From contig NC_009483.1 of the NCBI RefSeq assembly GCF_000016745.1, forward strand, positions 4,020,001 to 4,052,000: a stretch of 32,000 nucleotides of DNA, written 5' to 3'. This document shows positions 2,972 to 17,101 of this stretch, piece after piece. The translations under genes were made by a program, and so were the position numbers. The notes under the pieces were generated by a model. It was not told where the DNA came from and made no database searches. It saw only the letters and a program-made list of their open reading frames with translations. The number at the start of each line of letters is the position of its first letter. The stretch's first letter is position 1. This DNA comes from Geotalea uraniireducens Rf4 (lineage in GTDB: Bacteria > Desulfobacterota > Desulfuromonadia > Geobacterales > Geobacteraceae).

Positions 2972-3058
2972 CGATATGCTCCTTATCAAACGTGATATGG
3001 ATTATTCCTTTTTTATCACGGCAAGGGCCAATATAGTTCCAGTTCATGCTATTCCTCT

Positions 3059-3349
3059 TTACTTCATTCCCCCAGCTCGTCGATGGCGTTGTTTGTGCTG
3101 CTGTTGTTCCATGACAGCACGGAGAAGCTTATTAGCCCTTGTCTGGTAGCCTCTTCCTTCCTTTTTCAGCCAGTCGATAACATCAGCATCAAGGCGAATA
3201 GCAATGAGCTTTTTCGCTGGAGGTAATACAAGTGCTTTTTCAAAAAACTCGTCACCCAGTTCAGGTATATCCGAATAATCAATATCCTCGTCCTTAATGG
3301 CGTCGAGTCTCTTCAAGTCGCTTTTTATAGATTTCTTTTTCTCTTTCAT
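3059..3349 (-). CDS. brnA: BrnA-family antitoxin (type II TA)
   Basis: The 96-aa ORF contains ...DEDIDYSDIPELGDEFF...KKLIAIRLDADVIDWLKKEGRGYQTRANKLLRAVME, the characteristic BrnA (COG3514) motif set. Confidence 0.8.
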   Translation of the reverse strand: MKEKKKSIKSDLKRLDAIKDEDIDYSDIPELGDEFFEKALVLPPAKKLIAIRLDADVIDWLKKEGRGYQTRANKLLRAVMEQQQHKQRHRRAGGMK

Positions 3350-3434
3350 TGGCTTTCCTCATTGATATGATTCGCGTTGCACTGCTGCGGCGGGTGTAGA
3401 TTAGGACGACCACACGACCCCTCCCCCTCACGGT
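3294..3434 (-). pseudogene. brnT: Remnant of BrnT toxin (C-terminal ~46 codons only)
   Basis: My translation of the minus strand gives TVRGRGRVVVLIYTRRSSATRIISMRKANEREKEIYKKRLEETRRH*, which resembles the BrnT C-terminus (..VVVYT....IRIISARKA.K.E...Y). It overlaps the brnA start as in intact brnTA operons. A TAG at 3435-3437 closes the frame upstream, and the N-terminal part cannot fit before the next gene at 3535. Confidence 0.45.
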
Positions 3435-3534
3435 CTACTTGGATATTAATACCGGATTTTGTCTTATTGTGGGCTGGATAATACGGTTTTTATGAAGGGA
3501 TTTCAATAGAGATTGTGATTGGATGGGGTGTATT

Positions 3535-3939
3535 CTACTTACTCTCTTGAAAACCACTCGGAGGTGAGGTGTTCGTTCCTGCAGGGGAAACAACGATTAT
3601 TTTCTTCACATCGACCTCGGGAGAGGACATAAATTCCTTGTCGATTTCACCTGTTATTTCAACAAGTGTAGTAGGGTTTATGGGGGTTCCGTAAGGAAAA
3701 TACTTGTCGTCTACATCTATTGTGATTTGACCGGTACTATCAGCAAAAATATACTTGTCGTGGGATATTTTCTTGAGAATATGCCCCCTCAATGTAACCC
3801 ACATATCATCCACAGGGTTTTGTAATACTGCTTTTACGCTCGTTGGGTTTGTATGTTCAGTGCTTACGAATTGCCCAACCGAAGGGACTGCCGTTCCGAT
3901 TACAACAAGAAGCGCCATGACAAATAAACATTTACGCAT
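3535..3939 (-). CDS. Periplasmic OB-fold stress protein, YgiW/YdeI (BOF) family
   Basis: It has a signal peptide (MRKCLFVMALLVVIGTAVPSVG). It then reads ...SVKAVLQNPVDDMWVTLRGHILKKISHDKYIFADSTGQITIDVDDKYF...VEITGEIDKEF...EVDVKKI, the YgiW pattern. Confidence 0.8.
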   Translation of the reverse strand: MRKCLFVMALLVVIGTAVPSVGQFVSTEHTNPTSVKAVLQNPVDDMWVTLRGHILKKISHDKYIFADSTGQITIDVDDKYFPYGTPINPTTLVEITGEIDKEFMSSPEVDVKKIIVVSPAGTNTSPPSGFQESK

Positions 3940-4097
3940 GAAATCCTCCTTTCATATTTTTTCTTAAAACTCTCAAGACCATGGTTGCGTCTTCGGCCCT
4001 CTCAGGACCAACCCACAGGCTGGATTCCAGCGAGCATAAGGACCGTTGGGGCAATATCGATCAACCTTGCGGGCTCGGCCTGGAGTTGGCGCCGGGG

Positions 4098-5156
4098 CTA
4101 CCGGCGCGCCCCGACGAAGGATACCCGCCGCAGCCAGGCCTCTGTCGGGAAGGCTTGCTCCGTCCAGGTAGCCCCGCCATCCGTGGTGTGCAGGATGATG
4201 CCCCGGTTTTCGGTGCCCCCGCCGACCACCCACGCCTGCCGCTCATCTGTCGCGGTCACGCCCAACAGGTAGAAGCCGGTCCGGGGCACGGTCTGCTTGG
4301 TCCAGGTTGCGCCGCCATCGGTGGTCTTGTGAATGCCGTCGAAATCGGTAACCACCCAGACGGTGGACGAGTTCACCGCGCAGACACCGTTGGCGTCGCC
4401 GGGATCGAGGGATATGACCTGGGTCCAGGTGCTGCCGTCGAGGGTGCGACAGACGACTTGGCCGGGGGGGTTGAGGGGTGTGCCGCCTACAGCCCAGGCG
4501 GAAATGGGACTGAGGGCGCTAACGTCAATCAGGTGGTCGGAGAAGATGCCCGGCCCGCCCTGCCGCGTCCAGTGGGCGCCCCGGTCGGTACTGTACTCCA
4601 CCACCGGATAGTCGGTGCCGCCTTTGTCGCCGACGACCCAGACCGCCCCGGAACCGACCGCGTCCAGCCGCTGGAAGTTCGATGGAGGAATAGCCGGGGT
4701 GTTCTGCTTCACCCAGGTCCGGCCGGCGTCGGTGGTGTGCAGGATAACGCCGCCGGAGCCGCAGGCCCAAGCCTCGCTGGGGCTGACGGCCTTGATGCCG
4801 GACAACTCCTTCCCCGCATCGGGGGGAACCGTCTGCCGGTTCCAGGTGCGTCCGCCGTCGCTCGTGTACAGGATCACGCCGAGGTTCTCCGCGCCACCCA
4901 CTGCCCAGGCGGTGAGGTTGTCCACTGCCGTGACGTCATCAATCTCCACGTTGGGAATCTCCGCGGGCGAGCCTTGCCGCACCCAGGTCCGGCCGCCGTC
5001 GGTGGTGTGCAGGATCACGCCGTAGCCGGCATCCGGCTTGCCCACCGCCCACCCTACCGGCCCTCCCGACCACGAGTCGTTGCCGCCGCACCCCGCGGCC
5101 AGCAGGCTCAGCCCCACCACCACAGTTGCCATCGCTCCATAGACTAACGCACGCAT
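4098..5156 (-). CDS. Lipoprotein with 7-bladed BNR/Asp-box (Ycf48-like) beta-propeller
   Basis: I set the start at ATG 5156, which has GGTGGAGGA 7 nt upstream. The lipobox is LSLLAAGC. There are seven Asp-box repeats: HTTDGGRTW, YTSDGGRTW, HTTDAGRTW, YSTDRGAHW, RTLDGSTW, KTTDGGATW and HTTDGGATW. It is the last gene of the cytochrome cluster, 46 nt after the preceding stop. Confidence 0.8.
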   Translation of the reverse strand: MRALVYGAMATVVVGLSLLAAGCGGNDSWSGGPVGWAVGKPDAGYGVILHTTDGGRTWVRQGSPAEIPNVEIDDVTAVDNLTAWAVGGAENLGVILYTSDGGRTWNRQTVPPDAGKELSGIKAVSPSEAWACGSGGVILHTTDAGRTWVKQNTPAIPPSNFQRLDAVGSGAVWVVGDKGGTDYPVVEYSTDRGAHWTRQGGPGIFSDHLIDVSALSPISAWAVGGTPLNPPGQVVCRTLDGSTWTQVISLDPGDANGVCAVNSSTVWVVTDFDGIHKTTDGGATWTKQTVPRTGFYLLGVTATDERQAWVVGGGTENRGIILHTTDGGATWTEQAFPTEAWLRRVSFVGARR

Positions 5157-5202
5157 CTTCGCATCCTCCACCTGACAGATAAACCCGGGTTCCGAACCAC
5201 CA

Positions 5203-7908
5203 TCACCACGAATAGTTGCTATGATTCTCACCGCCGCAGCTGCCGTTGCAGGTGCCGTGACCGTCCCCTTTTCCCGAACGGGTGTAGGTAAAGCCGCTGG
5301 GCATTTGTATAATCACGTTCGCATCGTTGTGCAGCGTCCTGTTGCTCGGCCCGTGAGTGGATTGCCCGTGGCCTGCTGTACCGTGGCAGCTGGTGCATGC
5401 GATGCTGCCATGATGATCGGTGTGCAGGCCGCCCACGTCAGGGAAAGTGGTGCCGATTGGCCGGCCGGCGTTCGTGCTGCTGCCGTGGCAGGAATAGCAG
5501 CCGGTCGTCGGGCTCCCTTTCGGTGCAGCTTTGGTGTGGCATCCCTGGCAGTCGGGCGGCGTACCGGCAGTCGGAGGATAGGGGTAGCCGGTCGTTTTGC
5601 CGTTGGTGTGGCAGCCGCTCGTCACGCAGCCTGAGAATGGAGAAGCTCCTGCCGCCGACATGTGCGCTGCTCCGGTATAGGGGAAGCTGTGGCCGCCGCT
5701 CGGCTTGAATGCGTCGATGGTCGAACTTCCCGTATGGCTGTGGCAGCTGGTGCAGCGAATGCCGGCGTTGTGCCCGTCGCCGCTCGTCTGGGTATAGTGG
5801 TTGGTCGTGGTATGACAGGCGTTGCAGATGCCGTTGAAGGGGGCCGCGCTCTTCGCATAGTCGGTGCCCGTCGGGGTCGCCGACAGCGTGAAGGTTACGC
5901 TCTGGGAGCTCTGGGTCGTCGGGGCTCCCGTGGCCGCATCGGAAGCCACCGCCACCAGAGAGCGTACCATGAACCGGTTGGCATTGCCGGTGCCGTGCGG
6001 TTCGTGGCAGTCCCAGCAGTATCGACCACCGGAAAGGGTGCTGGTGTGTTTTGCGCCAAAGTGGGAGGAGCCGACCTTGCCGGCGCTGGAAGCGTTCCGG
6101 CTCGCTCCGCCGACCGTCACACCCGCAGAGCCCGCGGCGTGGCAGAGCATGCAGGCGCCGTTTTTACCCCAGGAGGCGTCCGCCAGGTTGCGCAGACGGA
6201 ACGGGTTGGTGGAAACATTATGGGCTATGGTCGAGTCGTGGCACCATTCGCAGTAGCTGGCGACGCCGGTGAAGTTGGCCGGCGGGTTGCCGGAGCCGGG
6301 ATAGTTGCCGGACGCGGTCGGACGGCCGTGACCGTTGTCCGCCCACGACCCGGTGCCGGTCATCTTGAACTTGGAGATGGCGCCGTTGTTCCAGAAGGTG
6401 GCGCCGAAATCGGACACCGAGGCGCTTGCCGCGTTGCCGTGGCAATCCTGGCAGTAGACGGCTGTTGTGCCCCACAGGACTGGATTGCCGCCGTGGCAGG
6501 AAGTGGCCGAACAGCTCTTGGTCCCGGCGGCCCAGGTGGCGCCGCTCCCCGCCTTGGCGCTGTTGAAGGTCACGTCGATGGCGCCGTTGTTATGGAGTAC
6601 CGAGCCTGCCGCGATGGCCGCGCCGGTGCTGGTCGTGCCGTTGTGGCAGGTGGCGCAGTCGGCGGCTGACGTCACATGCTTGGGATGGCTGTTGGCCAGG
6701 ACTGCGGCAGCGCCGGCATTTGCGTAGTCGGGCGCGCCGGTTGTGGTGGAAGCGCCGTGGCAGCCGTTGCACCCAATGGCGGCGCCGGTCCAGGCGGGCG
6801 CGACTGGTTGCGGGGCGGTCGCTTTGCCTGCGCTATGACAGGTGGTGGCTGAACAGGTCTTGGTCCCGGCGTTATAGGTCCCGCCGCCGACAAATGCCAC
6901 TGTTTTGCTTCCATCCACGTGGCTGGCAATCCCGGTGATCAACCGGTCGTTCCCCACGCTGACGGTGCTGCTGTGGCAGCGGGCGCACTCCAGGTTGGTG
7001 CCGAGGAAGGCAGTCTGGTTGATGTGCTTGGGGTGCAGGCCGCTGGCAATGACCGTGGCCGCCGAGGCGTTCCCGCCATGGCAGCCGGAGCAGTCCGCAG
7101 GGAGCGTGCTCCCCCAGACCGCGGCGGTTTTGGGTGCGCCGCCGATGCCGTCGCTGTGGCAGTACAGGGACGAACAGGTCCCGTTGCGGAGCGGATTCCG
7201 GCTCGGCAGGTAGCCGGGATATGTCACGTTGCCCGAATAGCTGCCGCCGCTGTTGGGTGGGGCGCCGAATACGATGATGAGACCCCTTTTACCAACGCTG
7301 GTGGCGTGGGCGAAGGGCTTGGCTTCCGCTGTGTGGTCCGCATGGCATTTTATGCAGGAGCCTGCGCCGGTCCCGTAATAGTCGCCATGCTTCTTGCCCG
7401 GCCCGCTCAGGGACGGATGGTTGCCGTCGCCCGGAGGGGCGCTGTGGCAGGTGCTGCACCCGGCAGGGGACGTGAGCGGCGCTGACGCCCACGGAGTGGT
7501 AACCGCTTCGAAGTGGCAGTTGACCTTGGAACAGGTTCCCATCACGGGAACGGAAGTCTGGTTGAAGAACACCCCTTTGCTGTAGGTGGCTGTGGCAGGC
7601 GAGTTGTAGATGTTGGAAGACAGCTCGATCACGCCGTTCATGTGGTCCTCGGTGTAGGTGCGGCTCCCGGTGTGACAGATCTCGCAGTTGGAAGGCAGGG
7701 CAACTGCCGGCTGGTGGGTTCTATGGCTCCCTCTGAAACCGCCGGTGGTGATGTTGCGGTAGAGCGCATCGATGGGGGGCATGCCGTGACAGTCGGAGCA
7801 GGTGGAAGCCGCCTCAACCGGGGCCGAGGCAACCAGCAAAACTCCCAGGACAAAGAAGATCGTCAAAACAGGTCTCTGCACATATCCCATGCCGTATGCC
7901 GCTCTCAT
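5203..7908 (-). CDS. Secreted multiheme c-type cytochrome, 901 aa (hand count 17 CXXCH + 5 CX4CH)
   Basis: AAGGAG lies 6 nt upstream of ATG 7908. The signal peptide is ...VLGVLLVASAPVEAAS. It carries dense CXXCH and CxxxxCH motifs of the Geobacter CxxxxCH...CXXCH repeat type (TIGR01904, from memory). Its N-terminal 478 aa are nearly identical to the next gene. Confidence 0.9.
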   Translation of the reverse strand: MRAAYGMGYVQRPVLTIFFVLGVLLVASAPVEAASTCSDCHGMPPIDALYRNITTGGFRGSHRTHQPAVALPSNCEICHTGSRTYTEDHMNGVIELSSNIYNSPATATYSKGVFFNQTSVPVMGTCSKVNCHFEAVTTPWASAPLTSPAGCSTCHSAPPGDGNHPSLSGPGKKHGDYYGTGAGSCIKCHADHTAEAKPFAHATSVGKRGLIIVFGAPPNSGGSYSGNVTYPGYLPSRNPLRNGTCSSLYCHSDGIGGAPKTAAVWGSTLPADCSGCHGGNASAATVIASGLHPKHINQTAFLGTNLECARCHSSTVSVGNDRLITGIASHVDGSKTVAFVGGGTYNAGTKTCSATTCHSAGKATAPQPVAPAWTGAAIGCNGCHGASTTTGAPDYANAGAAAVLANSHPKHVTSAADCATCHNGTTSTGAAIAAGSVLHNNGAIDVTFNSAKAGSGATWAAGTKSCSATSCHGGNPVLWGTTAVYCQDCHGNAASASVSDFGATFWNNGAISKFKMTGTGSWADNGHGRPTASGNYPGSGNPPANFTGVASYCEWCHDSTIAHNVSTNPFRLRNLADASWGKNGACMLCHAAGSAGVTVGGASRNASSAGKVGSSHFGAKHTSTLSGGRYCWDCHEPHGTGNANRFMVRSLVAVASDAATGAPTTQSSQSVTFTLSATPTGTDYAKSAAPFNGICNACHTTTNHYTQTSGDGHNAGIRCTSCHSHTGSSTIDAFKPSGGHSFPYTGAAHMSAAGASPFSGCVTSGCHTNGKTTGYPYPPTAGTPPDCQGCHTKAAPKGSPTTGCYSCHGSSTNAGRPIGTTFPDVGGLHTDHHGSIACTSCHGTAGHGQSTHGPSNRTLHNDANVIIQMPSGFTYTRSGKGDGHGTCNGSCGGENHSNYSW
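6503..7332. repeat. 830-bp direct repeat, copy 1 (identical to 10954-11783)
   Basis: Line-by-line comparison at an offset of 4,451 bp shows mismatches only at 6502 and 7333. Spurious ORFs in the track are letter-identical between copies (6590-6772 = 11041-11223; 6672-6929 = 11123-11380; 6905-7213 = 11356-11664). Lower-identity homology extends over 6491-7925. Confidence 0.9.
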
Positions 7909-7932
7909 CTGCGTCTCCTTGCGAATCGGCCC

Positions 7933-7967
7933 GAAGCCGGAAGCAAAAATCCTTTTGTTCCGGCTTC
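7933..7967 (-). other. Intercistronic stem-loop between the 1457-aa and 901-aa cytochrome genes
   Basis: GAAGCCGGAA (7933-7942) pairs with TTCCGGCTTC (7958-7967), a 10-bp perfect stem with a 15-nt loop. No U-tract follows on the minus strand, so it is not a classical terminator. Confidence 0.5.
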
Positions 7968-7985
7968 AGGCGCATTTCTATCCCT

Positions 7986-10900
7986 TTATTTTACGGTGCT
8001 CCATTTCTTGGACGCCTTGAAGTGGCACCTCACGTTGAAACAGCTGCCGGTCGCATTGGCCCCGCCGTCGAGGAGGACGCCGCTGTACTGGTTCGGTCCC
8101 AGTGGCAGCAACGGATTGAATTTATAACGGTCCGCCAAATCGATGGTGATCTTGCTCGGTGCAATCGGCAGCAGCATGGTGTGCGTGGCGGGACTGAACG
8201 AACCGTTGCCGTGGCATGGGGTACAATTGGCCCATCCTTCCGAAGGACGTGCCGTTTTCTTCACATGGCGCGGGAAGAGGTGGGCGCCCCCCCCTCCCGG
8301 ATAATCCTCGGCCCTGGCGCTGGAGTAATTCCCATGGGTGCCGACGAAACCGGCGGGAGCAGGCGGATATCCGTGACACGCGTCGCAATCGGCAGTCGGC
8401 CTGAATGCGTCGATGGTCGAACCTCCCGTATGGCTATGACAACTGGTGCAGCGGACGCCGGCGTTGTGCCCGTCGCCGCTCGTCTGGGTGTAGTGATTGG
8501 TCGTGGTATGGCAGGCATTGCAGACGCCGTTGAAGGGGGCCGCACTGTCCGCGTAGTCGGTGCCGGTCGGGGTCGCCGACAGCGTGAAGGTTACGCTCTG
8601 GGAGCTCTGGGTCGTCGGAGCGCCCGTGGCCGCAGAGGAGGCCACCGCCACCAGAGAGCGGATCATGAGCTGGTTGGTATTGCCGGTGCCGTGCGGTTCG
8701 TGGCAGTCCCAGCAGTATTGCCCGCCGGAAAGGGTGCTGGTGTGTTTTGCGCCAAAGTGGGAGGAGCCGACCTTGCCGGCGCTGGAAGCGTTCCGGCTCA
8801 CGCCGCCGACCGTCACCCCCGCAGATCCCAAGGCGTGGCAGAGCATGCAGACGCCGTTTTTACCCCAGGTGGCGTCCGCCAGGTTGCGCAGACGGAACGG
8901 GTTGGTGGAAACATAATGGGCGATGGTCGAGTCGTGACACCATTCGCAGTAGCTGGCGACGCCGGTGAAGTTGGCCGGCGGGTTGCCGGAGCCGGCGTAG
9001 TTGCCGGACGCGGTCGGGCGGCCGTGACCGTTGTCCGCCCACGACCCGGTGCCGGTCATCTTGAACTTGGAGACGGAGCCGTTGTTCCAGAAGGTGGCGC
9101 CGAAATCGGACACCGAGGCGCTTGCCGCGTTGCCGTGGCAATCCTGGCAGTTGACTGCTGTAACGCCCCACTGGACTGGATTGCCGCCGTGACAGGCGAC
9201 GTTGTTGCAGGTCCCGGCAGCCCACGTGGCCGTCGTCCCGGCTTTGGCTGCGTTGAAGTAGACGTTCGGCGTGCCGTTCAGGTGGTACGAAACAGCCGAG
9301 TAGTCCTTGAACTTGCCGGCGGCGGTCATGCTCGCGCTCTTCACGTGGCAGTTCGAGCAGACGGTGGTGTCGGCTGCACCGGCGACGTGTTTTGAGTGGC
9401 TGTTCGCGGTCGCACTGCCCGCTCCCCCGTTGGCATAATCAGGTGCGCCGATGGCGGAGCTGGTGCCGTGGCAGCCGTTGCAGCCATAGGTGATAGCGGA
9501 GTTCCAGGCAGCCGGGTTGGCGTAGACGATTGCTCCCGGATTGCCGTTGCTGTGGCAGTAGATAGAGAAGCACTGCCTGGTGCTGCGGTTGTATTTTGCG
9601 TTCCCCCCGGCCCTCGCGCCGGTGTAGTCGATAAATTTATTGATATGCCTGCTTTTGTCGCTGATGGTGGTGTTGCCGGCAGCCGTCCTGGCGTGGCAGT
9701 CGATGCAGTTGAGACCGTTGCCGAGTCCAATGATCGGGTTGCCGGCCGGGTTCATGTGCTTGTCGTGCTTGCCGGAAAGCCGGGTTGCGGTCGCACCGGT
9801 CTGCTTGGTGTCGTGGCATTGTACGCAGGTGCCGCTGCCGGCGGTGGTTGACCATGATACCGCCGTGAGGCCGTTGCTCCCCTGGCCGTTGCTGTGACAG
9901 TAGGTCGTGTTGCATCCACCGCCGCCGTTGGTCCATTTGAAACCGTTGTCGGTACCTTGGGTAGTGCCATAGGTGTAGCTCCCCTTGCGGGTGTTGGTGG
10001 TAAAGCCGTAAAACACTTCGGCTGCCCCCACCGCATTGGCAGGCCCTCCGGCATGGGTGGCCTTGCCCGCGCCTGAAGCGTGGCAGGACGAACAGGTGAA
10101 GCGATAGGCGGTTGCGCTGCTCACGTTGCCGGAGAAGTTGACGAATCTGGTCGGCAGCGCCGTGCCGGCATAGTGGATGCCGTGGGCGCCTGGAAGGGCG
10201 TTGTTGGCGGAATGGCACGCGTTGCAGGCCAGCGACGGCGCCCCCCATGGCGCCGAGGCCGCCGCACCGTGACAGTATGTGGCGGAACAGGTGGAGCCGT
10301 TCCAGCTGCCGGTGCTCCCCCCTATCGGCTTGAAGATCACGTTCGGCGTTCTGTTCAGGTGGTAACTGCCGGCGGTGTAGTCCTTGAACGCCCCGGCTCT
10401 GGTCTGGCTGACGGTCTTGGCATGGCAGTTTGCGCACCCCCTGGTGTCGATTATGCCTGCCCCGGCAACGTGCTTCGGATGGCTGTTTGCGGTCGTAGTC
10501 CCGGCTCCGCCATTGGCATAGTCCGGTGCGCCGGTTGTGGTGGAAGTGCCGTGGCAGCCGTTACACCCCATGGTCGCAGTGCTGCTCCAGGCAGGCGGGT
10601 TGACGGACACCAGGCTGCCCGGATTGCCGTTACTATGACAGTAGAGGTTGGTGCAGAGTTTGGTGGAGGCATTGTAATTCGCACTGCCACGGGCTTTTGC
10701 GCCGGAATAATCCACGAATCCGTTATTATGGTTGGCCGGGTTGGATATGGTCCGGTTGGCGCTCACGGTCTTGGCGTGACATTCGACACAGCCGAAATTG
10801 TTGCCGAGCCCGAGAATTGTGGGGTTGTTGACATGGGCGGTATGTTTACCCGTTGCAATGGCACTGGCGCTGGTGCTGTCGCCGCCGTGGCAACCGGTGC

Positions 10901-12359
10901 AGTCGGTCGGGAGCGTCCCCCCCCATACCGGCGCACTGGTCCCGTGGCAGGAGGTGGCCGAACAGCTCTTGGTCCCGGCGGCCCAGGTGGCGCCGCTCCC
11001 CGCCTTGGCGCTGTTGAAGGTCACGTCGATGGCGCCGTTGTTATGGAGTACCGAGCCTGCCGCGATGGCCGCGCCGGTGCTGGTCGTGCCGTTGTGGCAG
11101 GTGGCGCAGTCGGCGGCTGACGTCACATGCTTGGGATGGCTGTTGGCCAGGACTGCGGCAGCGCCGGCATTTGCGTAGTCGGGCGCGCCGGTTGTGGTGG
11201 AAGCGCCGTGGCAGCCGTTGCACCCAATGGCGGCGCCGGTCCAGGCGGGCGCGACTGGTTGCGGGGCGGTCGCTTTGCCTGCGCTATGACAGGTGGTGGC
11301 TGAACAGGTCTTGGTCCCGGCGTTATAGGTCCCGCCGCCGACAAATGCCACTGTTTTGCTTCCATCCACGTGGCTGGCAATCCCGGTGATCAACCGGTCG
11401 TTCCCCACGCTGACGGTGCTGCTGTGGCAGCGGGCGCACTCCAGGTTGGTGCCGAGGAAGGCAGTCTGGTTGATGTGCTTGGGGTGCAGGCCGCTGGCAA
11501 TGACCGTGGCCGCCGAGGCGTTCCCGCCATGGCAGCCGGAGCAGTCCGCAGGGAGCGTGCTCCCCCAGACCGCGGCGGTTTTGGGTGCGCCGCCGATGCC
11601 GTCGCTGTGGCAGTACAGGGACGAACAGGTCCCGTTGCGGAGCGGATTCCGGCTCGGCAGGTAGCCGGGATATGTCACGTTGCCCGAATAGCTGCCGCCG
11701 CTGTTGGGTGGGGCGCCGAATACGATGATGAGACCCCTTTTACCAACGCTGGTGGCGTGGGCGAAGGGCTTGGCTTCCGCTGTATGGTCCGCATGGCATT
11801 TTATGCAGGAGCCTGCGCCGGCCCCGTAATAGTCGCCATGCTTCTTGCCCGGCCCGCTCAGGGACGGATGGTTGCCGTCGCCCGGTGGGGCGCTGTGGCA
11901 GGTGCTGCACCCGGTGGGGGACGTGAGTGGCGCTGACGCCCACGGCGGGGTGACCGCTTCGAAGTGGCAGTTGACATTGGAACAGGTCCCCATCACGGGG
12001 ATGGTGGTCTGGTTGAAGAATACCCCTTTGCTGTAGGTGGCTGTGGCAGGCGAGTTGAAGATGTTGGAAGACAGCTCGATCACCTCGTCCATGTGGTCCT
12101 CGGTGTAGGTGCGGCTCCCGGTGTGACAGATCTCGCAGTTGGAAGGCAGGGCAACTGCCGGCTGGTGGGTCTGGTGGCTCCCCCTGAAACCGCCGGTGGT
12201 GACGTTGCGGTAGAGCGCATCAATGGGTGGCATGCCATGACAGTCGGAGCAGGTGGAAGCCGCCTCAGCCGGGGCCGAGGAAACCAGCAAAGCTCCCAGG
12301 GCAAAGAAGATCGTCAAAACAGGTCTCTGCACATATCCCATGCCATGTGTCATTCTCAT
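7986..12359 (-). CDS. Secreted multiheme c-type cytochrome, 1457 aa (hand count 26 CXXCH + 10 CX4CH)
   Basis: AGGAGG lies upstream of ATG 12359, followed by a signal peptide. A roughly 190-aa heme supermodule is repeated. The C-terminal CDACHGYPP...CFNVRCHFKASKKWSTVK domain is shared with the upstream cytochrome. Confidence 0.9.
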   Translation of the reverse strand: MRMTHGMGYVQRPVLTIFFALGALLVSSAPAEAASTCSDCHGMPPIDALYRNVTTGGFRGSHQTHQPAVALPSNCEICHTGSRTYTEDHMDEVIELSSNIFNSPATATYSKGVFFNQTTIPVMGTCSNVNCHFEAVTPPWASAPLTSPTGCSTCHSAPPGDGNHPSLSGPGKKHGDYYGAGAGSCIKCHADHTAEAKPFAHATSVGKRGLIIVFGAPPNSGGSYSGNVTYPGYLPSRNPLRNGTCSSLYCHSDGIGGAPKTAAVWGSTLPADCSGCHGGNASAATVIASGLHPKHINQTAFLGTNLECARCHSSTVSVGNDRLITGIASHVDGSKTVAFVGGGTYNAGTKTCSATTCHSAGKATAPQPVAPAWTGAAIGCNGCHGASTTTGAPDYANAGAAAVLANSHPKHVTSAADCATCHNGTTSTGAAIAAGSVLHNNGAIDVTFNSAKAGSGATWAAGTKSCSATSCHGTSAPVWGGTLPTDCTGCHGGDSTSASAIATGKHTAHVNNPTILGLGNNFGCVECHAKTVSANRTISNPANHNNGFVDYSGAKARGSANYNASTKLCTNLYCHSNGNPGSLVSVNPPAWSSTATMGCNGCHGTSTTTGAPDYANGGAGTTTANSHPKHVAGAGIIDTRGCANCHAKTVSQTRAGAFKDYTAGSYHLNRTPNVIFKPIGGSTGSWNGSTCSATYCHGAAASAPWGAPSLACNACHSANNALPGAHGIHYAGTALPTRFVNFSGNVSSATAYRFTCSSCHASGAGKATHAGGPANAVGAAEVFYGFTTNTRKGSYTYGTTQGTDNGFKWTNGGGGCNTTYCHSNGQGSNGLTAVSWSTTAGSGTCVQCHDTKQTGATATRLSGKHDKHMNPAGNPIIGLGNGLNCIDCHARTAAGNTTISDKSRHINKFIDYTGARAGGNAKYNRSTRQCFSIYCHSNGNPGAIVYANPAAWNSAITYGCNGCHGTSSAIGAPDYANGGAGSATANSHSKHVAGAADTTVCSNCHVKSASMTAAGKFKDYSAVSYHLNGTPNVYFNAAKAGTTATWAAGTCNNVACHGGNPVQWGVTAVNCQDCHGNAASASVSDFGATFWNNGSVSKFKMTGTGSWADNGHGRPTASGNYAGSGNPPANFTGVASYCEWCHDSTIAHYVSTNPFRLRNLADATWGKNGVCMLCHALGSAGVTVGGVSRNASSAGKVGSSHFGAKHTSTLSGGQYCWDCHEPHGTGNTNQLMIRSLVAVASSAATGAPTTQSSQSVTFTLSATPTGTDYADSAAPFNGVCNACHTTTNHYTQTSGDGHNAGVRCTSCHSHTGGSTIDAFRPTADCDACHGYPPAPAGFVGTHGNYSSARAEDYPGGGGAHLFPRHVKKTARPSEGWANCTPCHGNGSFSPATHTMLLPIAPSKITIDLADRYKFNPLLPLGPNQYSGVLLDGGANATGSCFNVRCHFKASKKWSTVK
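10954..11783. repeat. 830-bp direct repeat, copy 2 (identical to 6503-7332)
   Basis: See copy 1. The offset is exactly 4,451 bp and the orientation is the same. Confidence 0.9.
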
Positions 12360-12446
12360 GTCCGCCTCCTTACGATGTGCTGTTCGTTTATCGTATAAGT
12401 TTACAGATCATGCGGCGTTGACTTTCAGGTTCGGATTGCTGCTCCC

Positions 12447-15400
12447 TTATTTCACGGTGCTCCATTTCTTGGACGGCTTGAAGTGGCACTTCACGTTGGT
12501 ACAGCTGCCGGTCGCATTGGCCCCGCCGTCGAGGAGGATGCCGCTGTACCACCCCGGCCCCAGTTGCAGCAACGGATTGAACTTGTAACGGTCCGCCACG
12601 TCGATGGTGATCCTGCTCGGCGTAACCGGCAGCACCATGGTGTGCGTGGCGGGACTGAGCGAGCCGTGGCTGTGGCATTGGGCACAGTTGGCCCATCCTT
12701 CCGATGGACGCGCCGTTTTCTTCACGTGGCGCGGGAAGAGGTGGGCGCCCCCCCCTCCCGGATAATCCTCGGCCCTGGCGCTGGAGTAATTCCCATGGGT
12801 ACCGACGAAACCGACCGACGCCGGCGGATATCCGTGACAGGTATCACAGGCGCCGCTGGGTTGGAAGGCGAAAGCAGCCTTGTGGTTGTGGCATGACAGG
12901 CAGAACCCGGTCGGGTGGCCGTCCGGCGCCTGGCCCGCCCGGTAGTGGTTGGTTGCCGTGTGACAGGCCTGGCAAAGCCCGTCGAACGGGGGAACGGTTT
13001 TGACGAATCCGCTCGACAGGCTGGTGAAGCTGATGACTTTGCCGTTGATGGAGGTCTTGACCATGGAGAGGTTTGTCGTGCCATGGATATCGTGACACGA
13101 TTTACAGTCGCTCACGGCGGCTCCCCCCTTGACGAGCACGTGGGAGACCATCTTCTGTCTGGCGGGTGTCGGCACTTTGCCGGCGTCGTTATGACAGGAG
13201 GCGCAGAGACTGTTGTCGTCGGGGAGTGAAAGTCGTTTGTAACCCCCCAGCTTGCCGGAGATGTGCGGACTGTCCTGGTCATGGCAGGAGGTGCACTGGT
13301 TGCTGGCGGGAAACCGGCCGTGACCGGTCACGCCGAAGTTCGCCTTATAAGGCGCAGCCACGCCATTGGGAAGCACGGAGGGGAGTGCGGCATGGCAGGA
13401 GGTGCAGACAAGGCGGGTTGCAATCGTCCATGGAGGAATGGCCGCCGGGTGGCAGTTGGCGCAGGCGGAACCGGCGCCGGCAACCGCATCGACAGTGCCG
13501 TTGACATGGGTGGGGGCGGTATCGGTCGTATAGACATGGCAATTCTGGCAGACCGAGGGGTAGAGCGTGCCGAAATTCGGACCGTAGGGGGTGGTGAAGT
13601 GGGCGTTATGGGCATTGGTTGCCGGGACCGCGGCATGGCATGAACCGCAGGCCCCGCTTGCGGCGTTGAGCCAGTTCGGGGCCGTTAATGGAGCACCACC
13701 GCTACCGTCGCTGTGACACTTGCCGCCGGTACAGGTTGCGGCTGCCTCGTTCCAGACCGTGGCGGACGTCAATGGATCGGCAGTACTGAACACGACCGTT
13801 TTAACGCCATCAACATGCCTGGTCATGTCGGAGATGGTCGTATTGCTTGCAACAGTCGCGGCATGACAGGAGATGCAGCCGTACCCCCGGCTCAGGTGCT
13901 TGCCGTGCACGTTGCTGGTCGGTAAAGCCTCGTGACACATGCCGCATTCTCCAACAACGCCGGCTATGGTCCCCTTGCCGTTCGGCCAGACGACCGTCTG
14001 ATAAGTCAGCGTGCCGCCCCGCGGCGCGCCGTTGCTGTGACAGTAGACCGTGTTGCACGATCTGGCGGCCGGATCATATGCGGCGCCCGGTCCGGCGACA
14101 ATGCCGCTCTTGTCCATGAAGACATCCTGAAACGTCCCCGAGTTATGGGTATTCCCCTTGTGACACTCGTTGCAGGCATAACTGTTCGGCGCCCCGCCGG
14201 CATGGCTTGCGTGGGGCGTCCGCGATTCGTCGCTGAACGACGGCCGGGTGCTGTAAGCCGCCGCATATCCGTCAGGCCCCGCCGGCGTGTTGCTCTTCGG
14301 CGGATATCCGTGACATGAGGTGCATCCCCCTGCTACTGCCGAAAAAGCGCCCGTCGGATTGTTATGGAAATGACAGCCGTTGCAGACGCCGGCCGGTGCC
14401 GTAGCGAGGCTGTGCTCCGACGGGTAGCTGCCGCCGGTCGGGACCGCATGGCAGGCCTGGCAGACGCCGGTACCGTTCGCATCCTTGTAATTTCCGGCCG
14501 TAACCGAGGTGTATTGGAACAGCACCTTTCGGTTCCTCACCGAGCCGGAAGCGGTGGACACGTTCATATACCGCCTGACCAGATATGTATTGGCAACGGT
14601 CCCGTCTGCCAGGTCCACGTGGCCGGCGTGGCAGTCGGCGCACTGGACATTCTGGCTCCTGCCATTGTGATTCTGCTTGATATGGCAGTTGGTGCAGATG
14701 TTGGGGGCAGCCGCCGTTGCCCCTCGCAAATCAGTGCGCAGCAGGTAACCGGCGGAAGGTTTGAGCTTGTTGTATGTGGAATAGCCGTCAAAGGTCGAGC
14801 TGTCGGAATCGGCATAATGGACACCGTGACAGGTTGTACAGAGGACCGTTCCGCCCGCGAGCTTCATGGCAGAGGTTGGGTTGGAGGGGTTGCTGTTGAG
14901 CGGCGGGTTGTTGAATTCCGCCGGCTTGATTTTCACGAGCGAAGCGGCGCTCGTGTAATTGAAGTTGACCGGATGGGTGCCGACGGTATGGTCGATGGTG
15001 TTTCTGACCCGGTGGCAGTCAAGGCACATCTGGTCCCTGTCATTTGCCATGCGGAGGAACGGTCGGAAGATTTGAAGATGGGGATTATGACAGCGTGAAC
15101 AGGCGATCGTACCGACCGTCATGAGGGGGCCGGAAGCGCCGGAATTCAGCGCCTGACTCAAAGGCGGAAGCGCACCCGCTGCGGGAAGGTTGTCGGAGCC
15201 GACCCAGTTATGGGAGGTCTGATATAAGACTCCGGTCCGTACCGTCGGAAAGGTATGGAAAGGATCGGCGGCATCAACCGGGGTAAAAGGCTTCTTTCCC
15301 CCCTTGGCGATCCCCGGCCTGTGGCAGGTAAGGCAGACGTTAATCAGGCCCGCGCTGCCCAGGGTTTCCTGAATCGTATGACAAGTTGAACAGGTATAGC

Positions 15401-15500
15401 CGTTGCTCGGATCGTGGGGCGGATCGACTGCCAAAACCCCGACTGGGAAGAGTACCACGAGGATAGCGGCAAGAAGCTGGTAAACGACTGATCTTTTCAT
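12447..15500 (-). CDS. Secreted multiheme c-type cytochrome, 1017 aa (hand count 24 CXXCH + 3 CX4CH)
   Basis: I set the start at ATG 15500 (MKRSVVYQLLAAILVVLFPVGVLA), which has GGGAG 6 nt upstream. The N-terminal part has paired CXXCH..H motifs (CSRCHNPH...CLDCH, CTTCHGVH, CADCHAGH). The C-terminal 135 aa are about 90 percent identical to the C-terminus of the 1457-aa protein. Confidence 0.9.
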   Translation of the reverse strand: MKRSVVYQLLAAILVVLFPVGVLAVDPPHDPSNGYTCSTCHTIQETLGSAGLINVCLTCHRPGIAKGGKKPFTPVDAADPFHTFPTVRTGVLYQTSHNWVGSDNLPAAGALPPLSQALNSGASGPLMTVGTIACSRCHNPHLQIFRPFLRMANDRDQMCLDCHRVRNTIDHTVGTHPVNFNYTSAASLVKIKPAEFNNPPLNSNPSNPTSAMKLAGGTVLCTTCHGVHYADSDSSTFDGYSTYNKLKPSAGYLLRTDLRGATAAAPNICTNCHIKQNHNGRSQNVQCADCHAGHVDLADGTVANTYLVRRYMNVSTASGSVRNRKVLFQYTSVTAGNYKDANGTGVCQACHAVPTGGSYPSEHSLATAPAGVCNGCHFHNNPTGAFSAVAGGCTSCHGYPPKSNTPAGPDGYAAAYSTRPSFSDESRTPHASHAGGAPNSYACNECHKGNTHNSGTFQDVFMDKSGIVAGPGAAYDPAARSCNTVYCHSNGAPRGGTLTYQTVVWPNGKGTIAGVVGECGMCHEALPTSNVHGKHLSRGYGCISCHAATVASNTTISDMTRHVDGVKTVVFSTADPLTSATVWNEAAATCTGGKCHSDGSGGAPLTAPNWLNAASGACGSCHAAVPATNAHNAHFTTPYGPNFGTLYPSVCQNCHVYTTDTAPTHVNGTVDAVAGAGSACANCHPAAIPPWTIATRLVCTSCHAALPSVLPNGVAAPYKANFGVTGHGRFPASNQCTSCHDQDSPHISGKLGGYKRLSLPDDNSLCASCHNDAGKVPTPARQKMVSHVLVKGGAAVSDCKSCHDIHGTTNLSMVKTSINGKVISFTSLSSGFVKTVPPFDGLCQACHTATNHYRAGQAPDGHPTGFCLSCHNHKAAFAFQPSGACDTCHGYPPASVGFVGTHGNYSSARAEDYPGGGGAHLFPRHVKKTARPSEGWANCAQCHSHGSLSPATHTMVLPVTPSRITIDVADRYKFNPLLQLGPGWYSGILLDGGANATGSCTNVKCHFKPSKKWSTVK

Positions 15501-15620
15501 GCCAAACTCCCGGGAGCACAAATACTTCAGCTATCTGCATGGAAGGGCCAATGGCGATACCATCTTTGCAGGCTTTTCGAATTTATTGCATCAGGGTAAA
15601 GACTGGCAATTACAAGAACC

Positions 15621-15714: not shown

Positions 15715-16908
15715 TCACATGACCGTCAGGGCGGGTGTAAGACCGCTGATGGGGGCGCCGTTCTGGTCAACGACAGGCCCGAAAGAAATCACAACGAATT
15801 GGGATGGAGTGGGGACGTTAACCCCGGCAGCCACATCGCAGTTTATGGTCACGAATTCACCCACGCCGAAACCCGAAGAGCTGATGAGGGCCAACGTCAC
15901 CGTGCCCGGGACTGCACCAGATGCGGGTACGTATTTTGCGGCAACAAACGACCCGGTCGCCGCTGCACCCGACGCGGTTACGACCCCGGCAAGGGGTTGA
16001 CCGTTGGAGAAGTCGGCCCTCAATGTCACGCCGGTGGGAAGGCTGAATGTCGCCTCCAGCCCTCCGATGAGGGTGCCGGGAGAGAGGGTGCCGACGGTGC
16101 TCAGCTTGACGACCGCACTGAGGCCGCCGATGCCGGCAAGATTCGTCTGGTTGATGTCGGTTACGCCGGTCTGGTTGTTCGGACCGGAGAGGAACGCGGT
16201 CACTGCATCCGTCAGGGCGGTGGCGGATGCAACCGAAAGGTTGCCTGCGTTATTGATGTCATTGCTCAATGGGGCCAATGCGGCCTGCAATCCGCCCGAC
16301 GTCCTTGCCAATTGGGAAATTCCGGCCAGAAGGATGGTGTAGTCCTTCTGGGACTGGCTTGCAGCGGCAAAGGCAGTTGCAGATGGTTCAACCGGCTTGG
16401 TTGCGATGATGTCCACCATGAACAAATCCGTCACCAATGCATTGGCCGACGTGATCGCGGTTGGCGGCAGGGACGTGTCACCCGCCTTCACCACGGCAAG
16501 TTCGGTGATCGGCGTGACGGATACGGAGACGTTCCCGCTCGCACCGGCAACTGCCGCCCTCAGCGGCATCGGCAGGGGAACGGGGGAGGCGGATGACGAA
16601 GCAGACTCGTCCTTGTATGTCCCTCCGGTCACCCGAACGAGGAGGGCTCCCGAATAGGGACCTACACTTACGCTATAGCTCCCGTCAGCGTTGGTCGATC
16701 CAGTCCCTATGGGTACAGCGCCGACTGCGCCGCTCTGGTCCACGGCAAAGACGTTCACCGTTCCTCCGTTGATCAACCCCTTTGCGGCTACTCCGCTTAC
16801 CACCGTGGCGGGGGGTGCGGGAGTTCCGCCACCTCCGCCACCGCAGCCCCATATCGTCGAGGCGACGATAAGAGAAAATGTCAGGCCGAAAAGTTTAGTA
16901 ATTTTCAT
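15715..16908 (-). CDS. Lipoprotein of unknown function (397 aa), Gly/Ala/Thr/Ser-rich
   Basis: The lipobox is ASTIWGC, followed by a GGGGGG linker. The N-terminal GLINGGTVNVFAVD...TNADGSYSV resembles a carboxypeptidase-regulatory-like beta-sandwich. I recognise no other family. Confidence 0.7.
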   Translation of the reverse strand: MKITKLFGLTFSLIVASTIWGCGGGGGGTPAPPATVVSGVAAKGLINGGTVNVFAVDQSGAVGAVPIGTGSTNADGSYSVSVGPYSGALLVRVTGGTYKDESASSSASPVPLPMPLRAAVAGASGNVSVSVTPITELAVVKAGDTSLPPTAITSANALVTDLFMVDIIATKPVEPSATAFAAASQSQKDYTILLAGISQLARTSGGLQAALAPLSNDINNAGNLSVASATALTDAVTAFLSGPNNQTGVTDINQTNLAGIGGLSAVVKLSTVGTLSPGTLIGGLEATFSLPTGVTLRADFSNGQPLAGVVTASGAAATGSFVAAKYVPASGAVPGTVTLALISSSGFGVGEFVTINCDVAAGVNVPTPSQFVVISFGPVVDQNGAPISGLTPALTVM

Positions 16909-16967
16909 AGCGCGTCACCTTTTGTAACAATGAAAGCCGATTAGTACCAATCTTCTGAAAGATCAAG

Positions 16968-17090
16968 TCCCCCTTTATGAAAGGGGGATTTAGGGGGATT
17001 TGCCTTTCATCGCAGCCAGGAAAATCCCCCCTTGCCCCCCTTTCTCAAAGGGGGGTAACTTCTGCAGGGGTGTTTCCGTAACACCCCTGC
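16968..17090. repeat. Cluster of G5/C5-based palindromes and GGGGGATTT repeats in the NHL-lipoprotein spacer
   Basis: Three hairpins are present: TCCCCCTTT-atg-AAAGGGGGA (16968-16988), CCCCCCTTT-ctc-AAAGGGGGG (17035-17055) and GCAGGGGTGT-ttccgta-ACACCCCTGC (17064-17090). A tandem AGGGGGATTT x2 (16982-17001) is complementary to AAAATCCCCC (17021-17030), and ATGAAAGG pairs with CCTTTCAT, so alternative pairings are possible. Confidence 0.7.
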
Positions 17091-17101
17091 CCGGGATATT
17101 T

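What the first reader, a model, noticed from the sequence alone, without database searches (positions are those of the whole stretch)
5203..12376. The 901-aa cytochrome is a deletion/recombination derivative of the 1457-aa paralog, with the breakpoint inside a CX4CH heme motif
Two collinear homology blocks link the genes. Region 6491-7925 matches 10942-12376 (offset 4,451 bp) and covers the RBS, signal peptide and first 478 aa. Region 5701-~6490 matches 8397-~9186 (offset 2,696 bp, roughly 90-95 percent identity by eye). The offset difference of 1,755 bp equals 585 aa carrying 15 predicted heme sites, which are missing from the short gene. At the protein level the junction reads ...TKSCSATSCHG|GNPVLWG in the short gene. 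The long gene has ...TKSCSATSCHG|TSAPVWG and ...GTCNNVACHG|GNPVQWG. This is what unequal crossover between internal heme-module repeats would produce. The length arithmetic closes exactly: 1457-585-137+166 = 901. It suggests heme-rod length is being varied by module-level recombination.
Basis: seen in the sequence. Interest (0 to 1): 0.7.

Follow-up and report, generated by a model that had tools for sequence, protein, structure and literature searches.

The report
Tandem giant cytochromes swapping haem modules
Two neighbouring genes for giant multihaem cytochromes in Geotalea uraniireducens Rf4 differ by exactly five three-haem modules, but they are old tandem paralogues kept alike by gene conversion, so the short gene is not a fresh deletion copy of the long one.

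Summary
The 901-aa gene (S, 5203-7908) and the 1457-aa gene (L, 7986-12359) share two collinear blocks at offsets 4451 and 2696. S lacks 1755 bp, which is 585 aa, 15 haem motifs and five in-register trihaem modules. The junction lies in the His-Gly codons after a CX4CH motif.

- **Wider repeat.** Block 1 continues upstream through the spacer into the 3' end of L, which matches the 3' end of the upstream 1024-aa cytochrome (T). This is the signature of a tandem segmental duplication in which L is the hybrid gene.
- **Both genes are old.** T, L and S, each with its own tail, exist in a relative about 85% identical. A similar gene pair exists in a relative about 60% identical.
- **Gene conversion explains the similarity.** S and L differ by dS 0.15, against 0.35-0.5 between orthologues. 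This includes a recent L-to-S tract of about 0.94 kb with an 830-bp perfect run that ends at the junction.
- **No extended homology at the junction.** Only 5-10 bp match there, so the event was microhomology-mediated, not homologous unequal crossover.

Loss of the modules from S is the more likely polarity (about 0.65) but is not proven. Module number varies across the family (4, 6 or 9). This is a clear DNA-level example of known modular cytochrome evolution and is of moderate interest.

The parts
12447..15521 (-). T: upstream 1024-aa multihaem cytochrome with 27 haem motifs. Orthologues are 1017 aa, so the true start is probably a few codons downstream of the TTG.
   Evidence: ORF. Motif count. 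TIGR01904, PF09698 and PF09699 hits. Orthologues lie upstream of L in L001, L002 and L010.
12447..12860 (-). Block A: the C-terminal 137-aa, three-haem domain of T. It is the first part of tandem copy 1.
   Evidence: It matches L's last 137 aa at 83% aa and 88% nt, with dS 0.26.
12360..12446 (-). T-L intergenic spacer with the RBS.
   Evidence: Alignment. No stable fold.
7986..12359 (-). L: 1457-aa cytochrome (ABQ27583.1) with 36 haem motifs. Its architecture is m1-m9 + C + A.
   Evidence: TIGR01904 scores 288 bits over 9 stretches.
10941..12359 (-). Block B in L: signal peptide plus modules m1-m4 (aa 1-473, 12 haem motifs).
9186..10940 (-). Block M in L: modules m5-m9 (aa 474-1058, 15 haem motifs, 1755 bp). 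This segment is absent from S.
   Evidence: Each module has a one-to-one orthologue in G. pickeringii P0004 at 63-78% identity.
8400..9185 (-). Block C in L: a six-haem block (aa 1059-1320).
   Evidence: 93.4% identical to S 5704-6489 with no gaps, dS 0.151.
7986..8399 (-). Block A' in L: a C-terminal domain paralogous to T's tail. The start of tandem copy 2 (8378) lies 17 nt from the end of copy 1 (8396).
7909..7985 (-). L-S intergenic spacer with a conserved hairpin and the RBS.
5203..7908 (-). S: 901-aa cytochrome (ABQ27582.1) with 22 haem motifs. Its architecture is m1-m4 + C' + U.
6491..7434 (-). Recent gene-conversion tract from L to S. It has 3 mismatches in 944 bp, includes a perfect run at 6503-7332, and ends at the junction.
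   Evidence: The probability of so few differences at 6.7% divergence is about 1e-22.
6491..6500 (-). Junction microhomology CCTGCCACGG (Ser-Cys-His-Gly codons). The crossover falls within CACGG.
5704..6489 (-). Block C' in S (aa 474-735, six haem motifs).
5203..5703 (-). Block U: the S-specific C-terminal four-haem domain (aa 736-901).
   Evidence: Not present in L or T. An orthologue at 83% aa is in L003 (dS 0.50). Distant copies are in P0020, P0113 and P0121.
4098..5231 (-). Downstream Ycf48/BNR-like beta-propeller gene, part of the same minus-strand cluster.
   Evidence: PF14870 3e-22. 98% identical in L009.
15715..19843 (-). Upstream cluster genes: a 397-aa protein of unknown function and a 913-aa NHL/Ig-like repeat protein. 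Both are syntenic in all related loci.

Best explanation
The region is part of a minus-strand cluster in Geotalea uraniireducens Rf4. It encodes three tandem giant c-type cytochromes of the CxxxxCH/CxxCH (TIGR01904) family, whose N-termini look like secretion signals: T (27 haem motifs), L (36) and S (22). The bodies of L and S are chains of trihaem modules (CX4CH...CX2CH...CX2CH).

The most likely history has four steps.
1. **Starting point (inferred).** An ancestral two-gene arrangement: T (X-c-A) followed by G (m1-m9-C-U).
2. **Tandem duplication.** A tandem duplication copied the 4.4-kb unit [A, spacer, m1-m9, C]. This produced the hybrid gene L, which is the body of G joined to the tail of T. 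It left G downstream. This happened before the split from a relative that is ~85% identical.
3. **In-frame deletion (inferred).** The downstream copy lost m5-m9 by an in-frame deletion between the Cys-His-Gly codons that end m4 and m9. Only 5-10 bp of microhomology was involved. The result is S.
4. **Gene conversion (shown).** Repeated RecA-type gene conversion between L and S has kept m1-m4 and C 93-100% identical. The latest event was a ~0.94-kb transfer from L to S that stops where homology ends, at the junction.

The function is inferred from family membership only. The proteins are presumably periplasmic or extracellular electron conduits whose haem-chain length changes with module number.
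For: **Identity and family**
- S is identical to ABQ27582.1 and L to ABQ27583.1 of strain Rf4.
- TIGR01904 and PF09698 hits are far above their cut-offs.

**Tandem-duplication signature**
- Copy 1 runs 12839->8396 and copy 2 runs 8378->5700. They abut within 17 nt inside L.
- The tail swap occurs at a conserved AFxP linker shared by all tail types.
- G. pickeringii and locus L017 have a similar cluster with different breakpoints. Their repeat unit is [c-A, spacer, m1-m4] at 77-83% identity. That gives a 4-module hybrid gene upstream of a 9-module gene. Independent duplications from a two-gene ancestor are therefore parsimonious.

**Age of the gene pair**
- L001 is collinear with the window from 16922 to 7831 at 84%.
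- L003 carries the end of S's C block plus U.
- S-specific and L-specific spacers and 5' ends group by orthology.

**Concerted evolution**
- dS between S and L is 0.145 (B 5' part), 0.014 (B 3' part) and 0.151 (C). Between orthologues it is 0.34-0.50.
- The C-end quartet counts are 19 by genome versus 2 and 2 for the other groupings.
- Against the 98% strain, 44 sites group by orthology and none otherwise.
- Strain mosaics give the direction. L010's L carries the Rf4 type, L010's S carries type 2, and L002's L carries type 2.

**Deletion as the polarity**
- m1-m9-C is contiguous, with one-to-one module orthology, in P0002, P0003, P0004 and P0005.
- If L is a copy of the ancestral body, the parent must have contained M.
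- P0113 shows that an m9-C-U arrangement exists.

**Both genes are functional.** dN/dS is about 0.3 for B and C and 0.17 for U.
Against: - The S orthologue of the ~85% relative is not assembled across aa 26-623. Neither the age nor the polarity of the five-module gap is therefore observed directly.
- A U-tailed relative (P0020) and several others (P0024, P0037, P0042, P0100) have an m4-type module directly before C. An ancient short S, with its B and C blocks homogenised separately, remains possible.
- The two spacers are much more diverged than the coding repeats, so the duplication unit is not cleanly preserved.
- dS for A (0.26) differs somewhat from dS for B and C (0.15).
- The family is so mosaic that the deep reconstruction rests on parsimony.
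- No structure or experiment supports the 'rod length' function. The AlphaFold model was unusable, with pLDDT 36.
Confidence: 0.6

Rival explanations
1. S arose recently from the present L, or from a fresh duplicate of it, through one unequal homologous crossover between internal haem-module repeats that removed 585 aa.
For: - The blocks are collinear, and dS is equal in the B 5' part and in C (0.145 and 0.151).
- The junction is in register between modules of the same subtype.
- A 100%-identical tract abuts the junction.
Against: - S and L, each with its own tail, spacer and 5' end, already exist in a relative with orthologue dS of 0.35-0.5.
- An M-less S with a different B haplotype exists in a 98% strain. 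The identical tract is therefore a later L-to-S conversion and not a trace of the deletion.
- Only 5-10 bp of identity flank the junction.
- This model does not explain the A/A' repeat or the different tails.
Confidence: 0.08
2. S has been short for a long time. A U-tailed gene with an m4-type module directly before C is ancestral. No deletion of m5-m9 occurred in this lineage. The two homology blocks are separate gene-conversion tracts between old paralogues, and each stops at the edge of homology.
For: - The U-tailed P0020 has an m4-type module before C. So do P0024, P0037, P0042 and P0100.
- Four-module genes of about 900 aa are widespread.
- Conversion is demonstrably frequent and runs in both directions.
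- Divergence in the first 50 nt of C next to the junction is 12%, against 6.6% overall. This is as expected at the edge of old conversion tracts, though it is not significant.
Against: - It needs a further ancestral gene to carry m1-m9-C, which is orthologous to gene 3 of G. pickeringii.
- It does not explain why the end of copy 1 abuts the start of copy 2.
- The equal dS of the B 5' part and C would be a coincidence.
- P0113 shows an m9-C-U arrangement.
Confidence: 0.25
3. Insertion into L. The ancestral body was m1-m4 + C, and L later gained m5-m9 by internal module duplication or by import from another paralogue.
For: Short architectures are common. The blocks m5-m6 and m8-m9 are an old internal duplication, with m6/m9 63% and m5/m8 45% aa identical.
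Against: - M has one-to-one orthologous modules in P0002 to P0005 at 63-88% identity, as conserved as its flanks.
- dS for M between Rf4 and L001 (0.45) equals that of B and C.
- The internal repeats are only 74-79% identical at the nucleotide level, so the expansion is ancient and not recent.
Confidence: 0.06
4. Assembly artefact. The short gene is a mis-join across the repeated sequence.
For: An 830-bp exact repeat is present. Metagenome contigs of relatives break inside this repeat.
Against: - The genome record is a single 5,136,364-bp sequence.
- The junction has only 5-10 bp of overlap.
- The independent contig L009 reads through the same junction.
- The S ORF is intact and under purifying selection.
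Confidence: 0.01

Closest known systems
CxxxxCH/CxxCH domain c-type cytochromes (NCBIfam TIGR01904, Pfam PF09698 GSu_C4xC__C2xCH) of Geobacteraceae
   Same: S, L and T all score far above the family cut-offs. NCBI names S and L as members.
   Different: Nothing differs. They are ordinary members. No family member matched a solved structure by sequence, and I found no functional study of these two genes.
Modular evolution of multihaem cytochromes by 'grafting and pruning' (Soares et al. 2022, PMC9250108; Desulfuromonadia cytochromome survey, PMC11492766)
   Same: Haem modules are lost and tails are swapped between related cytochromes. Haem number varies among homologues.
   Different: Those studies infer events over deep time from structures and trees. 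Here the DNA junctions, the microhomology, the tandem-duplication boundaries and ongoing gene conversion are all visible within one locus and among near-identical strains.
The omcB/omcC tandem 10-kb chromosomal duplication in Geobacter sulfurreducens (Leang and Lovley 2005, cited in PMC2825233)
   Same: Tandem duplication of an outer-surface cytochrome gene region that yields highly similar paralogues in a Geobacter genome.
   Different: That duplication copies whole genes without changing module number. Here the breakpoints lie inside genes. They create a hybrid gene, and one copy then differs by five modules.
Concerted evolution of bacterial paralogues by gene conversion (for example the survey in PMC6053082)
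   Same: Paralogues are more alike within a genome than orthologues are between genomes, and the converted tracts have sharp edges.
   Different: A search of the held library found no paper reporting gene conversion among multihaem cytochrome paralogues. Here conversion acts on parts of genes that differ in length and in their tails.
GSU1996-type 'nanowire' cytochromes built from concatenated trihaem c7 modules (discussed in PMC11492766)
   Same: The polypeptide is a chain of repeated trihaem modules, so module number could set the chain length.
   Different: The module family and motif pattern differ (CX4CH + 2 CX2CH). Linear geometry is not shown here.

Membership tests
TIGR01904 / PF09698 CxxxxCH/CxxCH cytochrome family | Profile match above the curated cut-off. 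| tested here: met
   TIGR01904 scores are 123.6 bits for S, 288 for L and 49.9 for T, against a cut-off of 27. PF09698 scores are 53.5, 104.2 and 42.2, against a cut-off of 21.7.
TIGR01904 / PF09698 CxxxxCH/CxxCH cytochrome family | Repeated CX4CH motifs, each followed by CX2CH motifs. | tested here: met
   L has 10 CX4CH and 26 CX2CH motifs in a regular pattern of one CX4CH then two CX2CH. S has 5 and 17.
TIGR01904 / PF09698 CxxxxCH/CxxCH cytochrome family | Covalent haem binding and export to the periplasm or cell surface. | not testable with these tools
   Only an N-terminal hydrophobic segment ending in ...VEA/AEA-AS is seen in the sequence. No signal-peptide predictor and no experiment were available.
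Tandem segmental duplication | Two head-to-tail copies, with the end of copy 1 adjacent to the start of copy 2. | tested here: met
   Copy 1 is 12839->8396 and copy 2 is 8378->5700, 17 nt apart.
Tandem segmental duplication | A hybrid gene at the novel joint, with the flanking genes keeping their original ends. | tested here: met
   L is the body shared with S plus the tail shared with T. T keeps X-c-A and S keeps U.
Concerted evolution by gene conversion | Paralogues within a genome are closer than orthologues between genomes, despite conserved synteny. | tested here: met
   dS is 0.15 against 0.35-0.5. The quartet counts are 19 against 2 and 2. Synteny is shown.
Concerted evolution by gene conversion | Mosaic tracts with abrupt changes in identity that differ between close strains. 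| tested here: met
   There is an 830-bp perfect run next to sequence with 7% divergence. Rf4, L010 and L002 carry different combinations of haplotypes.
Homologous unequal crossover between repeats | Extended sequence identity, of tens of bp or more, on both sides of the crossover point. | tested here: not met
   Only CCTGYCACGG (9 of 10) matches. Upstream of it, identity between m4 and m9 is at the random level.
Microhomology-mediated (illegitimate or slippage) deletion | A short direct repeat at both ends, with one copy retained at the joint. | tested here: met
   CACGG is present at both L sites and once in S. TGYCACGG recurs 10 times in L. Of the 8 downstream partner sites, 2 keep the module register.
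Microhomology-mediated (illegitimate or slippage) deletion | The ancestral state contained the deleted segment. | tested here: inconclusive
   Parsimony from the duplication model and from the contiguous m1-m9-C in outgroups favours this. No S orthologue with M was found, and some relatives have an m4-type module directly before C.

The most novel reading that the evidence does not exclude
Giant Geobacteraceae cytochrome clusters may act as a natural length-diversifying system. In this reading, intragenic tandem duplications, in-register module deletions at the ubiquitous Cys-His-Gly codon microhomologies, and frequent two-way gene conversion continually generate strain-level variants. These variants would differ in haem-chain length and tail domain, and selection on extracellular electron transfer would then sort them.
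Probability: 0.25. Interest if true: 0.6.

Novelty: new member of a known kind. Interest (0 to 1): 0.4.

Why it matters
Multihaem cytochromes are the wires of extracellular respiration, and G. uraniireducens Rf4 is reported to hold the most per genome (75; PMC11492766). Their modular 'grafting and pruning' has so far been inferred over deep time. This locus shows the DNA mechanics at short range:
- a hybrid gene made by intragenic tandem duplication;
- a five-module (15-haem) length difference joined at a haem-motif microhomology;
- gene conversion still shuffling tracts between the copies in strains about 98% identical.

There is also a practical warning. High identity between cytochrome paralogues does not date their origin. 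In addition, short-read assemblies break inside these genes, so module-number variation is under-sampled in metagenome-assembled genomes.

Tried and rejected
- **Exact-sequence look-ups.** The look-up of encoding contigs for S and for P0007 found nothing on record. The source organism was identified instead through identity to P0007 and the cluster look-up.
- **Protein searches with sub-sequences.** A search with the U tail returned one hit. A search with a junction-centred query returned none, although 8000 candidates were collected. No further junction-spanning S orthologues came from that route.
- **Genome scan.** The genome-contig scan with S returned only 5 loci. It did not return the source genome or the middle of the S orthologue of the ~85% relative.
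- **Polarising haplotypes.** I tried to polarise the B 3' haplotypes with L001 as outgroup. The result was 17 against 17, which is uninformative. The direction was inferred instead from which gene carries each haplotype in L010 and L002.
- **Structure prediction.** The AlphaFold2 model of S from a 31-sequence alignment gave pLDDT 36.4 and pTM 0.26. It was unusable, so no fold search was run.
- **Solved structures.** The PDB sequence search with L gave no hit.
- **Frame errors.** The first codon-based dS runs on the C-end fragments were out of frame (last lines) and were discarded. Nucleotide identities and quartet counts were used instead.
- **Promoters and terminators.** The scan gave nothing informative in the spacers.
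- **Literature.** Aklujkar et al. 2013, on expression of G. uraniireducens cytochromes, is not in the held library.
- **Rejected idea.** I considered whether the 100%-identical tract marks the deletion event itself. I rejected this because an M-less S with a different haplotype exists in a sister strain.
Full report
**What is there.**
The window comes from Geotalea (formerly Geobacter) uraniireducens Rf4. The 901-aa product is identical to ABQ27582.1 and the 1457-aa product to ABQ27583.1. On the minus strand lies a cluster of genes:
- an NHL/Ig-repeat protein (17102-19843);
- a 397-aa protein of unknown function (15715-16908);
- three giant c-type cytochromes: T (12447-15521, 1024 aa), L (7986-12359, 1457 aa) and S (5203-7908, 901 aa);
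- a Ycf48/BNR-like propeller (4098-5231).

All three cytochromes belong to the CxxxxCH/CxxCH family (TIGR01904, PF09698), with scores far above the cut-offs. T has 27 haem-binding motifs, L has 36 and S has 22.

**Checking the observation.**
- Self-BLASTN confirms two collinear blocks. The first is 6491-8378 = 10942-12839 (93.9%, offset 4451). The second is 5700-6500 = 8396-9196 (93.4%, ungapped, offset 2696).
- The missing 1755 bp is L aa 474-1058 and carries exactly 15 haem motifs.
- The bodies of L and S are chains of trihaem modules, each with one CX4CH followed by two CX2CH. L is m1-m9 + C (six haems) + A (three haems). S is m1-m4 + C + U (four haems).
- The gap is therefore exactly five modules, in register.
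- At the DNA level S follows L's m4 up to CCTGC, shares CACGG with both L sites, and continues with the sequence that follows L's m9.
The shared N-terminal block is 473 aa, not 478.

- **The first block extends further.** It does not end at the start codon of S. It runs on, with indels, through the spacer into the last 137 codons of L. Those codons are paralogous to the last 137 codons of T (88% nt). In gene orientation the locus reads X-[A, spacer, m1-m9, C]-[A', spacer', m1-m4, C']-U. The end of the first unit (8396) lies 17 nt from the start of the second (8378). This is the signature of a tandem segmental duplication with both breakpoints inside genes. Under it, L is the hybrid product, joining the body of the downstream gene to the tail of T, and S retains the original U tail. 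The tails switch at a conserved ...AFxP... linker that every tail type shares.
- **Identity is strongly heterogeneous.** 6491-7434 has 3 mismatches in 944 bp, with a perfect run of 830 bp at 6503-7332. The remainder of both blocks is about 93% identical. The probability of so few differences at the background divergence is about 1e-22.

**Relatives.**
- **A strain about 98% identical.** Contigs L002, L010 and L009 carry T, L and S. L009 reads through the same m4|C junction from 111 nt upstream, so the junction is real and shared.
- **A relative about 84-85% identical.** Contig L001 (ENA) and contig L003 from Geobacter sp. MAG clean984 appear to belong to one lineage. L001 is collinear with the window from 16922 to 7831. 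That covers T, then L with the same m1-m9-C-A architecture, then the L-S spacer and the first codons of S. L003 carries the end of C plus U. The S-specific and L-specific spacers and 5' ends group by orthology. The contigs break inside the repeats, so the middle of that S orthologue is unknown.
- **A relative about 60% identical (L008).** It has an L-like gene (...m7 m5' m4' c A) directly followed by a U-tailed gene (m1 m2 m5 m4 m5 m4 C U).
- **G. pickeringii (L016) and locus L017.** The order is NHL gene, T-like gene, a 4-module gene (m1-m4 + c + A, about 900 aa), then a 9-module gene (m1-m9 + C + a long extension). The modules are orthologous one-to-one with those of L. The repeat unit is different, [c-A, spacer, m1-m4], at 77-83% identity.
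- **Conclusion from relatives.** The simplest reading is that tandem duplications arose independently, with different intragenic breakpoints, from a two-gene ancestor.

**Concerted evolution.**
- dS between S and L is 0.145 (first 540 nt), 0.014 (the rest of B) and 0.151 (C). Between Rf4 and the 85% relative it is 0.34-0.45 for the blocks of L and 0.50 for U.
- For the C-end quartet, 19 informative sites group the sequences by genome and 2 group them by orthology. Against the 98% strain, 44 sites group by orthology and none otherwise.
- Both genes therefore predate the split from the 85% relative. Their shared parts were homogenised afterwards, and the roughly 7% divergence predates the split between the close strains.
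- In the 3' half of B, Rf4's L and S and L010's L carry one haplotype. L010's S and L002's L carry another, and L010's L has a third segment.
- Conversion is therefore recent and runs both ways. In Rf4 it went from L to S, and the tract ends at the junction simply because homology ends there.
- The identical tract is thus not a trace of the deletion, because the sister strain has an M-less S with the other haplotype.

**Mechanism at the junction.**
- Modules m4 and m9 are the same subtype (50% aa identical). Their DNA matches only over CCTGYCACGG, and the crossover falls within CACGG.
- That is too little for homologous unequal crossover. It fits microhomology-mediated deletion, such as replication slippage or illegitimate recombination.
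- TGYCACGG occurs ten times in L because it encodes Cys-His-Gly. Of the eight partner sites downstream of m4, all are in frame but only two preserve the module register.
- The in-register outcome could therefore reflect chance or selection.

**Polarity of the gap.**
I favour loss from S, at about 0.65, for three reasons:
- m1-m9-C is contiguous and orthologous in P0002 to P0005.
- Under the duplication model, L is a copy of the ancestral body, so that body must have contained M.
- P0113 shows that an m9-C-U arrangement exists.

Several points count against this:
- The U-tailed P0020 and several other relatives have an m4-type module directly before C.
- Conversion is frequent enough to have homogenised B and C separately in an anciently short S.
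- No S orthologue that retains M was found.

A recent insertion into L is unlikely. M is as diverged from its orthologue as the flanking blocks are (dS 0.45), and its internal repeats are only 74-79% identical.

**Function.**
No solved structure matches by sequence, and the AlphaFold model was unusable (pLDDT 36). Both S and L are under purifying selection, with dN/dS about 0.3 in B and C and 0.17 in U. The idea that module number tunes the length of a haem 'rod' rests only on the modular sequence and on analogy with other modular cytochromes (PMC11492766).

**Comparison with what is known.**
- Modular gain and loss in multihaem cytochromes, called 'grafting and pruning', is established (PMC9250108, PMC11492766).
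- Tandem cytochrome duplications in Geobacter, such as omcB/omcC, are known (cited in PMC2825233).
- Concerted evolution in prokaryotes is known (PMC6053082).
- A library search found no report of gene conversion among multihaem cytochrome paralogues. The recent papers on modular evolution do not discuss the DNA mechanism.

**Verdict.**
- The locus is a new, well-resolved example of a known kind of evolution, not a new kind of system.
- Interest is about 0.4.

Noticed in passing
window 7925-7975 (minus strand), L-S intergenic spacer; L001 12514-12590: There is a strong hairpin between the stop of L and the RBS of S (-33.1 kcal/mol, z -4.45). The 84% relative keeps it with compensatory base changes (-49.1 kcal/mol, z -4.84). 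The T-L spacer has no such fold (z +0.8). It may be an intercistronic processing, stability or attenuation element.
   Followed up: partly
L010 about 2970-3040 (T-L spacer of the ~98% strain): A G/C-rich palindromic insertion of about 70 bp (…CCCCCTCCCCATCCCTCCCCCTCCTGGGGAGGGGGGAGG…) is present here and absent from Rf4 and L001. It may be a small repeat element.
   Followed up: no
window 5203-5703 (U domain of S); P0121, L004 10001-10464, P0020, P0113: The four-haem U tail is rare. It occurs as a stand-alone 247-aa protein (53% identical) and as a small ORF in an unrelated deltaproteobacterial MAG. It also forms the tail of two distant family members. It behaves as an independently mobile module.
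   Followed up: partly
P0009 (Geomonas sp. Red32, 872 aa) versus L: Its architecture is m1 m2 m8 m9 C A. This is another five-module gap relative to the 9-module form, but with different breakpoints (m2|m8). In-register module loss therefore appears to recur in the family.
   Followed up: partly
L016 (G. pickeringii CP009788, 693980-719517) and L017: The syntenic cluster has the short and long genes in the opposite order to Rf4 and its own tandem repeat unit [c-A, spacer, m1-m4]. The ResB and CcsA cytochrome-maturation genes lie directly downstream.
   Followed up: partly
window 4098-5231 (minus strand): A Ycf48/BNR-like beta-propeller gene overlaps the stop of S by up to 29 bp if the GTG start is used. 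It contains short internal DNA repeats (4710-4752 = 4980-5022 at 95%).
   Followed up: no
window 3001-4000: GC content drops to 0.43, against 0.62-0.68 in the cytochrome genes. The two best promoter-like matches of the scan (3727-3755 on the plus strand, 3506-3478 on the minus strand) lie here, between the BNR gene and a DUF4139/DUF4140 gene (1295-2989).
   Followed up: no
window 3981-5147, 5662-6669, 7896-9395, 10080-11120 (plus strand): Long ORFs of 335-499 aa lie antisense to the cytochrome and BNR genes. They duplicate along with the repeats and are most likely by-products of high GC content and codon bias, not genes.
   Followed up: no
contig ends of L001, L002, L003, L009 and L010: Every short-read metagenome contig of this locus ends inside the L/S repeats. 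Module-number variants of such cytochromes will be systematically missed or truncated in metagenome-assembled genomes.
   Followed up: partly
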